Below, in pieces: positions 17,501 to 56,500 of a stretch of 64,000 nt of DNA (its first letter is position 1; each line of letters begins with the position of its first letter). The translations under genes and the position numbers were made by a program. The DNA lies in the NCBI GenBank assembly GCA_964658305.1, contig OZ210884.1, positions 1,426,001-1,490,000 of the forward strand, in the 5' to 3' direction. Under the pieces are notes generated by a model that saw only the letters and a list, made by a program, of their open reading frames with translations, had not been told where the DNA came from and ran no database searches. The stretch comes from Leptogorgia sarmentosa (Eukaryota).

Positions 17501-20500
17501 TAAAAGTATAAAAGCGTCGGTGGAGGGGGTAGGAGGGGGTAAACATGGGGGTTGAAAACATCAGCAAAGTCTCGTGTGTTACAATTGAATTAACATTCAA
17601 TGTCATCTCGACATTATGTGATGTAACCTGCTGCATGTCGGTACGGAACGCTCATAGAATTTCGGAAAATGTCGTGACAGGATTCTGTAAAATCTATTAG
17701 CCTTTCATAATAAGGAAATATATTGACCATGAATGTGGAAGCGTGAATATTATACCTACCGGTAGTGTGGTGCTCAAAAGCAACCCCGCCAGGATAAGCA
17801 TAAGAAATATCATTATTCCAGCCAAAGGCTAACATTCCGAAAATAATTTCAGGTGAAGAATGATAGAATGTAGCAATTTCCGTTCCAGGTGTGCCAACGA
17901 CTGTCCATACATATTTGGTTCCCGTAACTCTCATCCAGTCTAGATTATCCCCTTTCAATCCATTTATGAACAATCCATTGGTGTGGCGTTCTTCGATTGT
18001 AACTATCACTGAGCTATAAAAATTTGAAGTATAACTAGAAACAATGCGATAATATGGCAAATAGTGTTTTACCGAAGGAAGAACAATCATAGAGGCGCGA
18101 CATCCGTTTCTTTCGCCTCTTGTGTACTGTGTAACTTGGCATGGTTTACTGCAATTAACAAATGAAGCCAAAGTTTCATCTAAACTAATTTCAACGTGCA
18201 TCCCCAATGACAAAACTTTGGTCCAGTTTCCACTCTTGATTACCGTATTGTTTTCGTAAGCAAAGACCCGAAAAACATCTCCTCGACTTTTTTGAGCTGA
18301 TCCAATTGTTGTCAAGATATAATGTTGTCCCCATTGGCTAACAGGTGAAAGAAATGAATCAAGTCTTCCAACCAATCCAGAATTTCCAATACGTGCACGG
18401 TCTACGCTAGAGACTACCGAGATTGGTTTTGTTGCGTAAATGACTGTTCCTGATAAGTCCGATGTGCTAGTCAGCTGTATAGATTGCAATCTATCCAAAG
18501 AAACCTGGAGAGGATTTCCATGGTTGTACCAAGTTCCGTCGTACTGGATCGTGGAGACACGATTAGGTTGAATTAAAATCTTGTTTTTGTCATGTGTAGA
18601 TATTATGCCAATTTTCGCTCGTGAGTTACCATCATATGGTTTATATGATGGAACAATGTAAGTAATGCCCAATGCATGGGTGGGAAGGGCTAGGTATGCA
18701 TGACCATAGGATGAACTGTGGTAATTCAAACACATCAAGGAAATCTCCGTTGTCGATGAAACCAGAATACCATTTGTTTGTTTGCTTTGCATTCGCAGAG
18801 ATGACGGCAGAGAATAGTGCAAGGATTCGCCTTTTTTCATATGAAAAGTCACGTTCAAGGGACTTTCTGATGTGCGCGTTAGAATAGACACATTTGCATC
18901 AAGGTGAGCAACTATTGACATTCCAATGTAACCACCACTGCTTGAAAAATACTGTGCGGGAAATCCGAGAATGAATTCTTTCCCACAATTAGTCACCTTA
19001 TCTAAAAAACAAATGTAAATTAAATATTTGTTGTTAATGGCCCTATCAATTTTATTTGAAAATAAGAAACAGAAACATTTTAAGTACTTCAGTTGTAAAT
19101 AAGTGAAATGCATCCACAATAAACGAAATAAATCCATATAATGCATTTCTTGTATTTAAAAATCAAAAGCTACTAGTTGCCATATTGCATTTTCCAGGAA
19201 GTGCAATTAATGAAATTATTGCTCTCTTTTTGATCAATTTGATTGAAGAAAACTAAATGTAGTAATTCCTCTATTTCAGTTGTTTATGTTACCTTGGAAT
19301 GTTGACTTGAATGATGCTATGTAACTTGTTTGTTGTTCTCCTAAAGACAAAGAGACATTGAAAAACTAATTAATGGATAATCAAACGAATAATAAAGTCA
19401 TCAAAGAAACCTTGGTAAATAACTACTTTCGCATTTTGGTGGCAAAAAAACTTTTCATTGTCTTATTTTCCTACTATGTAAGACAACAAATTTCCTGTCA
19501 GAATTTGGAGGTATGTTTCCCCTCTATCATTGTGAAAAACGTGCACATTATTTTGTATTTAATTAGATCAGATTAGTTTATATAACTGAGAAGACAATAT
19601 AATTTATACAGGCTCGCGTATTCCGGCTACTACTTACCGCCAAAATGGTTTTGCAAAGCGAATCCACCAGGGTAAGCGTACGAAGCTCCATCACTCCAGC
19701 CATATACAAAGAGACCAAACTTTACTGCTGAAGACGTATGATAAACAGTGACAGTACTTGGGTCAGAAAAACTTACTACTGTCCACACATATTCCGTTCC
19801 ATTGACCATCTTCCAGTTTACGTCCATTAATTTTATTCCATTCAAATACAAGCCTTTTAGGTGCTGATACTGTATTACTATGGTGATCGAATCGTAGTAT
19901 TCTGAACCATAGGGAAGCACCACACGGTAGTAGGAAAGGAATTGTCTTACTGATGGGAGGATCATCATCGAAGGATCAGCATATTTTCCACCAATTCGCT
20001 CGCCTTTGATGTATTGCACAACTTGACATGGTTTACTACATTTAACAAATGATGCATGACCAAGTTCCAGCTCCGTATATGTCGCCGCCGACAAGAATTT
20101 TGTCCAGTATTCAGTTTCCACAACAGTGTCGTTTTTATAGGCGAAAATTCGAAAAACGTCGGCTTCGTTTTTATCTAATGTTCCTAACGCTATCAAGATG
20201 AAGTAGTGTTCCCAAAGAGAAACTGGTAAAAGAGCAGTTTCAAAAAAGTCGTCCCGAGAATTGACAGAACTTGTTGGTCGAGCTCGTTCTACTCCAGATA
20301 TTACTGTAACAGGTTTTCGCGACTTTACTAATGTCCCAGACAAGTCTGACTTACTTGAAATGTATAATGCTTCAAGTTTTTCTAATGTTACATACAGAGA
20401 TGTTCCTTTTCTGTACGAGAATTCACGTGATTGAATGACAACGTTCTTGTTGGGAATAACTATAATGGCGTTGTTTTCATGCGCTGAGATGACAGCAAAA

Positions 20501-53500: not shown

Positions 53501-56500
53501 GCTGCATATCGATGGGATTGATAGTTCAAGCACAACAGCGAAATGTCACTCGATGATGAAATCTGAATGCCGTTCTGGAGGTATGTAGACTTGCTCATTC
53601 GCAGAAAGACTGGAAGCTTATACTCATACGTTTGCCCACTTTTAATATGAACAGTGTAGTTCCATGACTTGCTTGACTGCGTGCCGGTGAACGTTACGTT
53701 CGTGTCATATGGGGCAAGAATTGATATTCCAATATAATCAGATTGATAACTGGAATGTTGTGCTGTAAATCCAATTGTGAAATGTCTTCCGTAATGGTTT
53801 GGTGTATCTGAAATTAAAAAGTTTGATGCACAGACTGTAACATAAAAATACAACCTCAGATGATACAAGCGCATGGAGGGTCCAATTACTCGGATGTCTA
53901 TTATTTTAATGGGTTGGACAGATGGAATATCCGAACTAGCGAGGCACACCCGTCTTACATGAATTTACCCAATGAGCAGCAAAAATTCAGTGCGAGGACC
54001 ACTGTACTTGATCGTACTGCGCAATGAATTTTGGTAATTGGAGGAGTTTGAAAAACTCACTAGTAGCTACTGGTGCATGTTAATTCCAAATTGCACTCGA
54101 AACCCAGCTATTAACTATATACTAACAGTAGCGACGCCAAAATGCAGAAGTATACGAGTAACGGATTTTGAAACGAGTATTACCAAACCGGGGAGCATAA
54201 CCCGCAACAAGAACCTAAATAGTAACCTAAGTAAACGCTATCCAAGGATTTGCCGTCATACTTTAAACTAAGGTATATATTTTCGACTAGGTAAACATTT
54301 GGAAAATGTTTAATTCGCCTGACCCTTTGGAAATTGCGAACAACGAAAGAACTCTTTCTATTTATAAAAGTAAGGAGTCCAGTACTTACTCATGAACCTC
54401 TGCTGGAAAAGCGGAACGGATGAGAAAATTGCATCCTCACCTAAATGAAGAAATTCGCAAAGAAATTAGTTAAACATTTTATCGGCTAATATACAATTTT
54501 CTTTTCCGATGATGGACAAAAACGTCAACAAAGGTTAATGTGTCTGGGACTGGAAATTCGAAATGGGAATTGTACACATGTTAGCATTTCAACCCCCCAA
54601 AAGTTGATAAAAATTCATCATCTATGGGAAATTCGTCAATCATAATATACTAATGTTACCCAGGTGCATAATATTGGGTAAACATTAAAGATAAGTCTCG
54701 CAGGTAAACTAAACATTACGCACGAAGAGGAGCTGATAAGCGACATTCTTGCTTCAAAATCCAGATAAAGTAAATAATAAATTTTCGAACCTACGCAGAA
54801 TGTCAACTACGGTTCCAATTAGGCGGATAGAGAAGATAAGCAATCTTGGATACTGTCAAAGTTTGACCGGAATGTGAGGAAAAAAGCCAGAGATGTTTAA
54901 ACAGGCTGTGTACATTGCAAAAATAGAAACTTGTGCGTATGCTTTGGGTTGCCATCAATCACGCCTTATGATAATTCGCGCGGTTGAGTAATTACAATAA
55001 TACGTCACCAAAATCTCAGTTCGTTAAATTCCCTTCTAAATTAAGTTAACTTATAAAGCTAAGCCTAGAGGTTGCACCTCAACTATTTTGCTATTAGTAA
55101 GTAATAAAGTAGGTTAGTCTTAACCTGTCTAAGTATCGGTAGAATGAGCGAAAAACTGACTTGAGAAGTGCGACAACACCTTAAACAAACAGAACCGGAG
55201 AGCTGGAACGAGGGTTCATAGTACAGCACATGAACGCTGATTGGTGGATTCAGTGTCGTGCCACCCCGCTGTTCACGTGTCCAAAGATCCCCTCGACCGA
55301 CAGTATAAAAGGAACTCCCCATCCCAACTTGAGTCAGTGGACGTAGACCGAAGTAAAAGCGTAGCAAATGAAAAGGCTACTGAAACTCAACAGACAAACT
55401 CGACGAAGAAACCAACCAAACAACATTAAGAAGAAGACGGAAGATTTTTACGAACAGTAGAAATACTATAAGACCAACTGTAACGATCCCATCCTCGTCG
55501 ACATATTTAACAGTGGTGGAGGATCGGCCTCATAACGACAAAAACGGATGAAGAAGCGGTCTGCTTCCAAGACCTTAAGAAACACATGTGAAAGATGCGT
55601 GGTTTTGCCTGGATGTCTATTCAACTGCTGTTTTTGGCGCTGATGGTCTTACCCCGTTCCGATCTATCGGATCCTGCGTGCCTGTTCAGGGCGAGAGACG
55701 ATGCGCCTAGCAAGTTGTTTGGGAGAATGTCACAAGATGCAGCCAATCATGGTCTGCGTATTTCTGATGTTGCTGGCGCAGACCTTGTTCCGTTACCTTT
55801 GGAGCCACCTTGAGTTAACAATGCAATTCCCGCGAATTTATGATCCCTTTCCTGATGAACAGTTATATTTTACACGGACATGATAATGGAAACTCCTATA
55901 CGAACTTACGGTAGCTATTATATAATTATTATAGCTTTACGTTTTTTGAACTGTACCTGTCTGTAATTCCTTGTAAGTGAGTTTTGTGTATTTTTATAGT
56001 ACCTTCCTAGTGCATGGTCTATGGATATGAAAACACAAGGGAATGATTGTTCAACCAAAATTGCCTAAGTCACACTCACGATGCTTTATAACCTCACGAT
56101 GCCGTAGGTTAGCGCATGCATGCATTCAGTTGGGTCAGCAATAAAATATTTTGCCGCAATTTTTGTCGTTAATTATATTCACAGCTAAATGTTCTCTCTC
56201 CCCGGGACAGTCAAAGGGTACCCCAACCTTGTTATAATGGAATATGATATCTTTTCAAGCAAAAGCTTAAATATTAGGAAAATTCTTGTATTTTCTATGT
56301 AGACTCGGTATTATTTTGTCGATGAAAACCTACATTTTAAAGTTTGAAATGCTGAGCATGACATTAATTCAAGAACAAAAATTGCGTAATTATCGAAGTT
56401 TACAAAAAATTGTTGTTGCATGTTGAAATATTTCGAAATTTATTGAAGACGTATTATTAAAATATTCGAAAGAAAATTAGCTAAGTTCAGTTTATTATTA

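What the first reader, a model, noticed from the sequence alone, without database searches (positions are those of the whole stretch)
19293..54440. Strict alternation of large exons with 48-54-nt linker micro-exons, all symmetric phase 1
Nine micro-exons (GE(D/N)AIFSSVPLFQ(Q/K)RFM x3, DSNPFAL(S/F)PVPSYQSRL(K/E) x5, GEQQTSYIASFKSTFQ x1) sit exactly one per inter-domain intron. Most share a VP.(F/Y)Q.R(F/L) pattern. Every module is frame-neutral, so any subset can be skipped, duplicated or deleted. That would allow combinatorial alternative splicing and copy-number change. The conserved linker may be structural, for example a strand completing the neighbouring domain, rather than a flexible spacer.
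Basis: partly seen in the sequence, partly recalled or inferred. Interest (0 to 1): 0.7.

Follow-up and report, generated by a model that had tools for sequence, protein, structure and literature searches.

The report
Tandem FCGBP-N array with linker micro-exons
A gene, likely from a soft coral, strings at least ten copies of one mucus-protein domain together with tiny exons that are spliced in and likely encode a conserved flexible linker; this frame-neutral layout is ordinary for animal extracellular proteins, and no mix-and-match of domains was seen.

Summary
Ten 1242-1278-nt exons, each one FCGBP_N (PF17517) domain, alternate with nine 48-54-nt micro-exons on the minus strand. All are phase 1 and join into a 4380-codon open frame, followed by three EGF-like exons. 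All three micro-exon types appear in spliced contigs from one study. The peptides are conserved in two octocorals. They travel with the downstream domain: present before the first domain of a relative, absent after the last domain. They do not look like a fold-completing strand: AlphaFold folds the domain without them and leaves them at pLDDT <50, and 0 of 137 distant domain starts carry the motif. No domain skipping was seen. One faint contig (depth 2, 1 of 3 runs) skips micro-exon 1, which begins with a donor-like GTGAG. Diversity arises at DNA level, through recent duplications and mosaic domains whose first ~130 codons differ 10-24% while the rest is nearly identical. All-phase-1 symmetry is the known rule for animal extracellular modules. 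Verdict: real and mostly ordinary; the long FCGBP_N array is a modest variant.

The parts
59632..60900 (-). Large exon D1, FCGBP_N domain (1269 nt); spliced to unseen upstream sequence
   Evidence: a contig runs 349 nt past its acceptor
54390..54440 (-). Micro-exon m1 (51 nt), starts with GTGAG
   Evidence: joints D1-m1 and m1-type to D2-type in 3 of 3 runs, skipped in one depth-2 contig
52542..53807 (-). Large exon D2 (1266 nt)
50956..51006 (-). Micro-exon m2 (51 nt)
   Evidence: D2-type to m1-type joint in 2 of 3 runs, copies not separable
49108..50373 (-). Large exon D3 (1266 nt), 98.8% aa identical to D2
45376..45426 (-). Micro-exon m3 (51 nt)
43528..44793 (-). Large exon D4 (1266 nt), 99.3% aa identical to D2
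40122..40175 (-). Micro-exon m4 (54 nt), diverged SNPF-type copy; not tested in reads
37436..38707 (-). Large exon D5 (1272 nt)
36640..36693 (-). Micro-exon m5 (54 nt)
33788..35065 (-). Large exon D6 (1278 nt), identical to D7
32992..33045 (-). Micro-exon m6 (54 nt)
30140..31417 (-). Large exon D7 (1278 nt)
29345..29398 (-). Micro-exon m7 (54 nt)
22572..23843 (-). Large exon D8 (1272 nt)
21782..21835 (-). Micro-exon m8 (54 nt)
   Evidence: joint 21835/22572, side 54, in X4, X5 and X6; shows the type, not the copy
19638..20900 (-). Large exon D9 (1263 nt)
19293..19340 (-). Micro-exon m9 (48 nt), FxDK-type linker
   Evidence: 48-nt gap between D9 and D10 in the 4015-nt contig of X5 and X6; orthologue in P0303
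17760..19001 (-). Large exon D10 (1242 nt), last FCGBP_N domain; no micro-exon follows
16070..16186 (-). EGF-like exon 1 (117 nt, phase 1)
   Evidence: Pfam EGF hits below cut-off; 117+123 nt fill the 240-nt gap of the contig
15700..15822 (-). Calcium-binding EGF exon 2 (123 nt, phase 1)
13735..14791 (-). Last coding exon: third EGF-like repeat (no Pfam hit), stop at 14615-14613, then 3' UTR; no transmembrane segment

Best explanation
This is one gene, likely octocoral, for a giant, probably secreted glycoprotein of at least ten tandem FCGBP_N domains and three EGF-like repeats, in which each micro-exon is spliced in and likely encodes a conserved flexible linker leading into the next domain. 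Shown: exon anatomy, domain identity, inclusion of all three micro-exon types in spliced contigs, conservation of the peptide. Inferred: the ancestral unit was [micro-exon + following domain exon] with phase-1 introns. Unequal crossing-over multiplied it, and gene conversion made mosaics in which the first beta-sandwich (about 130 codons) varies while the rest is homogenised. Splicing is mostly constitutive. The product is most likely a beads-on-a-string mucus or matrix protein offering many slightly different binding surfaces. The phase-1 symmetry made duplication harmless to the frame; it is not itself evidence of an isoform-generating system.
For: PF17517 above cut-off in 7 of 7 large-exon ORFs scanned; the other three are 98.8-100% identical to scanned ones. 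Best named relatives are Dendronephthya and Paramuricea proteins, 46-67% identical. Spliced joints: D1-m1 in 3 of 3 runs, m1-type to D2-type in 3 of 3, D2-type to m1-type in 2 of 3; D8-type to 54-nt exon in X4, X5 and X6; unbroken D9-m9-D10-EGF contig in X5 and X6. A 17-40-residue linker sits at 17 of 17 domain-domain junctions in 9 octocoral gene models (one break inside a broken domain of P0004 and 4 duplicate isoforms left out). The motif precedes the first domain after the predicted signal peptide in P0002 and is absent after the last domain in 5 of 5 cases (window, P0002, P0003, P0022, P0288). The FxDK linker precedes 6 of 6 D10-clade domains with a known upstream side and no other domain, while domains followed by it fall in three places of the tree (no shuffle test run). 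AlphaFold: domain blocks mostly pLDDT 85-98, linkers <50, two-domain pTM 0.57 against 0.88 for one domain. Mosaic pattern and a ~180-nt tract at 1-4% difference between copies otherwise ~22% apart. 4-7 N-glycosylation sequons per domain. Class 1-1 predominance is documented (PMC8001218, passages; PMC5400394, passages: 154 of 155 introns phase 1 in sponge aggregation-factor genes).
Against: The RNA-like runs are three samples of one study, held as contigs, and not on record as RNA; contigs drop rare isoforms, and 36 joint rows were not displayed. m4 and the individual copies m2/m3 and m5-m8 were not resolved. One contig skips m1 (depth 2 against 3.8 for inclusion in X6). The strongly conserved aromatic and arginine positions are more than a neutral spacer needs, and the linker columns of the fold alignments had only 2 rows and about 6 partly misregistered rows. 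Folds used Dendronephthya proteins, not the window's own. The D5-D8 duplication is in the other register (domain + following micro-exon), and in P0284 a domain follows a WIF domain with no linker. The signal peptide is outside the window; secretion and a mucus role rest on relatives and on papers about other animals.
Confidence: 0.72

Rival explanations
1. Combinatorial alternative splicing: subsets of modules are skipped to give many isoforms, as in an immune-recognition repertoire.
For: All 19 exons are frame-neutral; copies differ mainly in one sub-domain; one skip joint exists (m1); Dendronephthya LOC114532010 isoforms differ by 117 aa of EGF repeats. The same idea was offered as a possibility for sponge aggregation factors (PMC5400394, passages).
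Against: No domain-skipping joint among 11 of 11 rows or the 15 displayed of 51 rows; adjacent modules are spliced in series in one 4015-nt contig; 0 of 5 annotated isoforms drop a domain or linker. Phase-1 symmetry is expected with no such system (PMC8001218, passages). Skips among the near-identical D2-D4 or D5-D8 copies would be invisible in these contigs.
Confidence: 0.1
2. The micro-exon peptide is a structural arm or strand that docks on the downstream domain or in the domain-domain interface and stiffens the chain.
For: Purifying selection; the motif [VI]P[ST][YF]xxR is kept in two other octocorals; it is present even before a first domain, where no spacer is needed; it co-varies with the downstream domain type.
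Against: Both models leave it at pLDDT <50 with no strand. The domain starts straight after the signal peptide in many distant homologues and 0 of 137 distant starts have the motif, so the fold does not need it. A catshark array uses 14-residue spacing, equal to the form without the micro-exon.
Confidence: 0.15
3. m1-m3 are recursive-splicing exons: joining to the upstream exon rebuilds a donor (ATG|GTGAGG, ACG|GTGAGA), so the linker can be removed and the spacing tuned from 31 to 14 residues.
For: Junction sequences differ from the native donor ACG|GTGAGT only at +6; the single skip seen is at m1; annotated, mostly constitutive exons of this kind are common in deuterostomes (PMC6224609, abstract and section 15).
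Against: One contig at depth 2 in 1 of 3 runs; plain exon skipping gives the same product; the three copies are one event; the similar Paramuricea linker begins with Asp, so the GT start is not conserved there; skips of m8 and m9 may be hidden in undisplayed rows.
Confidence: 0.1
4. Part of the array (one of D6/D7, perhaps of D2-D4) is an assembly artefact and the true copy number is lower.
For: 0 mismatches over 3.5 kb including introns between the D6 and D7 units.
Against: D2, D3 and D4 differ by 9-11 substitutions per pair, and D5, D6 and D8 by 52-67; a very recent duplication gives the same picture. This does not touch the exon pattern.
Confidence: 0.2

Closest known systems
FCGBP_N / IgGFc_binding domain proteins (Pfam PF17517; Lang et al. 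2016, PMC4948705, passages read)
   Same: Same domain; extracellular partner domains (EGF); function of the domain still unclear (PMC11796319, passages).
   Different: Lang et al. describe the domain as typically N-terminal, with two copies in some vertebrate proteins; here at least ten in tandem, with no VWD-C8-TIL in the part of the gene seen.
Octocoral gene models LOC114541737, LOC114532010, LOC114532167 (Dendronephthya gigantea) and CAB3981121.1, CAB3997085.1 (Paramuricea clavata)
   Same: Same domain clades, both linker types, same order VP-linker/domain/FxDK-linker/D10-like domain, EGF tail in some.
   Different: Models hold 2-4 full domains, many partial; expansions are lineage-specific; LOC114532167 ends in FN3, a transmembrane segment and a tyrosine kinase.
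Uncharacterised tandem arrays in axolotl (XP_069460991.1, 17 domains), newt (11), caecilian (6), catshark (6)
   Same: Beads-on-a-string repeats of the same domain with mostly short linkers.
   Different: 22-27% identity; unrelated linkers, often Pro/Glu-rich; likely independent expansions (inferred, no tree built with them); exon structure not examined.
Class 1-1 exon-shuffled modules; sponge aggregation-factor genes (PMC8001218, PMC5400394, passages)
   Same: Domain boundaries match exon boundaries; all introns phase 1.
   Different: Here the module is a 420-residue domain in a single exon plus a separate linker exon.
Dscam1-type combinatorial splicing (recalled, not from a call)
   Same: Clusters of duplicated, frame-compatible exons for extracellular domains.
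   Different: Copies here are spliced in series rather than one chosen per cluster.

Membership tests
FCGBP_N / IgGFc_binding (PF17517) domain proteins | Pfam match above gathering score | tested here: met
   7 of 7 large-exon ORFs scanned, 143-171 bits against cut-off 25.6
FCGBP_N / IgGFc_binding (PF17517) domain proteins | Signal peptide / secretion (typical, not universal) | not testable with these tools
   5' end lies outside the window and no genome is held; relative P0002 has a signal-like N-terminus
Vertebrate-type FCGBP | Single N-terminal FCGBP_N followed by VWD-C8-TIL repeats | tested here: not met
   Ten tandem domains then EGF repeats and a stop in the spliced contig
Class 1-1 exon-shuffled extracellular modules | Domain = exon unit flanked by phase-1 introns, length 3n | tested here: met
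   19 of 19 array exons and the first two EGF exons; 76 of 84 homologues have Gly or Ser at the donor position, as a phase-1 GT read-through gives (indirect)
Dscam-like combinatorial splicing | Alternative modules used in different combinations in mRNA | tested here: inconclusive
   No domain skip in displayed joints, serial splicing seen; contigs only, near-identical copies collapse
Dscam-like combinatorial splicing | Intronic docking/selector pairings enforcing mutual exclusion | not tested
   Not searched; adjacent copies splice to each other
Donor-strand complementation | Domain lacks a strand that the linker supplies | tested here: not met
   Domain aligns end to end with linker-less homologues and is predicted complete; linker is not a strand in 2 of 2 models; prediction only, thin alignment at the linker
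Recursive-splicing exon (m1-m3) | Strong donor rebuilt at the exon-exon junction | tested here: met
   ATG|GTGAGG and ACG|GTGAGA; no species-calibrated score computed
Recursive-splicing exon (m1-m3) | Splicing intermediate or lariat from the rebuilt donor | not testable with these tools
   Only contigs available; one depth-2 skip product

The most novel reading that the evidence does not exclude
Octocorals have built a diversified recognition system from the FCGBP_N domain. Secreted poly-domain chains and a receptor tyrosine kinase share the same micro-exon + domain module. The first beta-sandwich is a variable binding region that gene conversion swaps between copies on a constant scaffold. 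The GTGAG-starting micro-exons are recursive-splicing switches that shorten the linker. This would give the first handle on what FCGBP_N binds.
Probability: 0.12. Interest if true: 0.65.

Novelty: new variant of a known kind. Interest (0 to 1): 0.3.

Why it matters
The splicing layout itself is expected for an animal extracellular protein. What is of some use: FCGBP_N has no known function and no solved relative by sequence, and has been described as typically N-terminal. A ten-copy array, a kinase-linked relative, and natural variants that differ almost only in the first sub-domain give ready-made reagents for finding its ligand. Gene callers that miss the micro-exons would still join the domains in frame, so such linkers are easy to lose in annotation.

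Tried and rejected
No whole genome is held, so the 5' end could not be followed. The run search listed no RNA holder; X4-X6 were treated as RNA-like only because their contigs join across canonical introns, while X1 covers introns. Depth was not used for copy number. Sequence search of D9 against solved structures: 0 hits. Foldseek gave only generic beta-sandwich matches, TM-score at most 0.17; VIA-align best Z 7.5 (TM1070, residues 22-131), no match at Z 8 or above, so no fold family is assigned. dN/dS: below 1 in all divergent pairs, including the variable third (dN 0.09-0.14, dS 0.17-0.24), so positive selection is not shown. A last coding exon at 13341 spliced from 14672 was considered and dropped: contigs read through 14672 to a stop. 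The X5 joint 53797/52542 could not be assigned; D4-m4-D5 was considered but the fitted piece has 5 mismatches to D5. No micro-exon upstream of D1 within 60901-64000 (best score 10.6). A C-terminal sequon as a conserved feature: only 31 of 84 homologues. Earlier findings of the scan: none by place, sequence or words. Paper searches; none of the listings showed a paper on tandem FCGBP_N arrays or on this octocoral family; one search was uninformative. Supplementary figure S5 of PMC4948705 (all 974 architectures) was not seen and may show such arrays.
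Full report
Observation. The window is eukaryotic, 37% G+C. Ten long minus-strand ORFs each hold one exon of 1242-1278 nt. Seven of seven scanned match Pfam PF17517 IgGFc_binding (FCGBP_N) at 143-171 bits; the other three are 98.8-100% identical to scanned ones. All 19 lengths are multiples of three and the join is open for 4380 codons. Splice-site score alone put the true micro-exon first in 6 of 9 introns. Stronger tests came from outside the window. A linker profile from other species ranks the eight VP-type micro-exons as the top 8 of 61,738 windows, and a second profile ranks m9 first of 52,387 by a thin margin. 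m4 and m8 are 87% identical with 5 synonymous and 1 non-synonymous codon, in flanks at 33%.

The gene. Best named relatives are from the octocorals Dendronephthya gigantea and Paramuricea clavata, so the source is likely an octocoral. Downstream of D10 lie three EGF-like exons. The 5' end is outside the window: a contig runs 349 nt beyond the D1 acceptor, and no linker exon was found in 60901-64000. Paramuricea CAB3981121.1 has the same order, with GEEQISHMASFKSTFRDK matching m9 plus the start of D10.

Splicing. Three samples of one study (X4-X6) give contigs that join across canonical introns; they are not on record as RNA, and X1 covers introns like DNA. In X5 and X6 one 4015-nt contig carries 30 nt upstream of D9, D9, a 48-nt gap equal to m9, D10, a 240-nt gap equal to two EGF exons, and the last coding exon, which ends in a stop with no transmembrane segment. 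The D8-type to 54-nt micro-exon joint is in X4, X5 and X6 (15 of 51 joint rows shown). D1-m1 and m1-type to D2-type are in 3 of 3 runs, and D2-type to m1-type in 2 of 3 (all 11 rows shown). No displayed joint skips a domain. One contig of depth 2 in X6 joins D1 to D2 without m1, against 3.8 for inclusion in that run. m1-m3 begin with GTGAG, so splicing rebuilds a donor-like junction, the mark of a recursive-splicing exon (PMC6224609, abstract and section 15 read). Plain skipping or noise explains it equally well. Skips among near-identical copies cannot be seen in contigs. In Dendronephthya, 5 annotated isoforms of 2 genes differ by EGF repeats or by 2 residues, never by a domain or linker.

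What the peptide is. A 17-40-residue linker is at 17 of 17 domain-domain junctions in 9 octocoral gene models (one break inside a broken domain and 4 duplicate isoforms left out). The motif also stands before the first domain of P0002, right after a signal-like N-terminus, and is missing after the last domain in 5 of 5 cases. In a 26-row tree the FxDK linker precedes 6 of 6 D10-clade domains with a known upstream side and no others (no label-shuffle test). So it belongs with the downstream domain. Against a strict rule, the D5-D8 duplication is in the other register and P0284 has no linker after its WIF domain. It does not look like a fold-completing strand: 0 of 137 distant domain starts have the motif and many begin just after the signal peptide. 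AlphaFold on linker-domain-linker from P0002 gives pTM 0.88 with both linkers under pLDDT 50. On linker-domain-linker-domain from P0001 both domains fold, the linker (434-453) is under 50 and pTM is 0.57. Few rows covered the linker, so a docked arm is not excluded. Spacing between the domain-end and domain-start motifs is 27-33 residues in octocoral models and 14 in a catshark array; by my count from the junction peptides the skipped form also leaves 14.

Where diversity comes from. D2-D4 and D5-D8 are separate recent expansions. D5, D6 and D8 differ at up to 24% of bases per 30-codon window in the first ~130 codons and at 0-3% after the first 150. D4 and D5/D8 differ about 22% throughout except a ~180-nt tract at 1-4%. 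That is the pattern of gene conversion or unequal exchange (inferred). The variable part roughly matches the first beta-sandwich of the model (residues 22-131). dN stays below dS, so positive selection is not shown. D6 and D7 units are identical over 3.5 kb: a very recent copy or an assembly artefact.

Comparison with what is known. All-phase-1 symmetric modules are the rule for animal extracellular proteins (PMC8001218, passages); sponge aggregation-factor genes have 154 of 155 introns in phase 1 (PMC5400394, passages). FCGBP_N is described as typically N-terminal and probably secreted (PMC4948705, passages), its role still unclear (PMC11796319, passages); oyster proteins annotated as IgGFc-binding are linked to mucus and adhesive (PMC6337334, passages). 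Long arrays already sit in databases as uncharacterised proteins: axolotl 17 domains, newt 11, caecilian 6, catshark 6. Searches listed no paper on such arrays; supplementary figure S5 of PMC4948705 was not seen. Dscam-type splicing and donor-strand complementation are recalled comparisons.

Verdict. The frame symmetry is ordinary, combinatorial splicing is unsupported on limited data, and the linker is conserved but predicted flexible. The array is a new variant of a known domain family. Interest 0.3.

Noticed in passing
window 7497-10846 (+): Multi-exon gene (ORFs 7497-7955, 8565-8951, 10196-10846) with an amphipathic segment; only a weak HlyE Pfam hit (E 0.032); 16 unnamed homologues at 43-59% identity, several clusters with over 100 members, no Pfam family in 4 scanned. 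A likeness to cnidarian pore-forming proteins is recalled only, not shown by any search.
   Followed up: partly
window 21147-21711, 24538-25008, 28085-29271, 32113-32918, 35761-36566: A palindromic high-copy element lies in four of the five introns that follow an SNPF-type micro-exon (not after m4), doubled in two and interrupted by a nested insertion in one; a candidate substrate for the unequal exchanges.
   Followed up: partly
window 13734-13342 (-): Intron in the 3' UTR about 880 nt after the stop, inferred from contig arithmetic and a canonical donor and acceptor; such introns can trigger decay (own knowledge).
   Followed up: partly
window 63193-63732 (-): hAT transposase dimerisation-domain remnant upstream of D1.
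   Followed up: no
window 54654-55512 and 57127-57993: 867-bp direct duplication (98%) inside the D1-m1 intron, with repeat elements covered by contigs of the RNA-like runs.
   Followed up: no
P0002 (Dendronephthya LOC114532167) and P0011 (Oculina): FCGBP_N domains as ectodomains of predicted receptor tyrosine kinases.
   Followed up: partly
P0022 (Dendronephthya LOC114533393), residues 110-148: Two linker motifs in tandem between two domains, suggesting the micro-exon alone was duplicated.
   Followed up: no
window 37287, 33639, 29994 (-): A 66-69-nt in-frame pseudo-exon candidate outscores the real micro-exon by splice-site matrix in three introns; the D8-type joint shows no such insert.
   Followed up: partly
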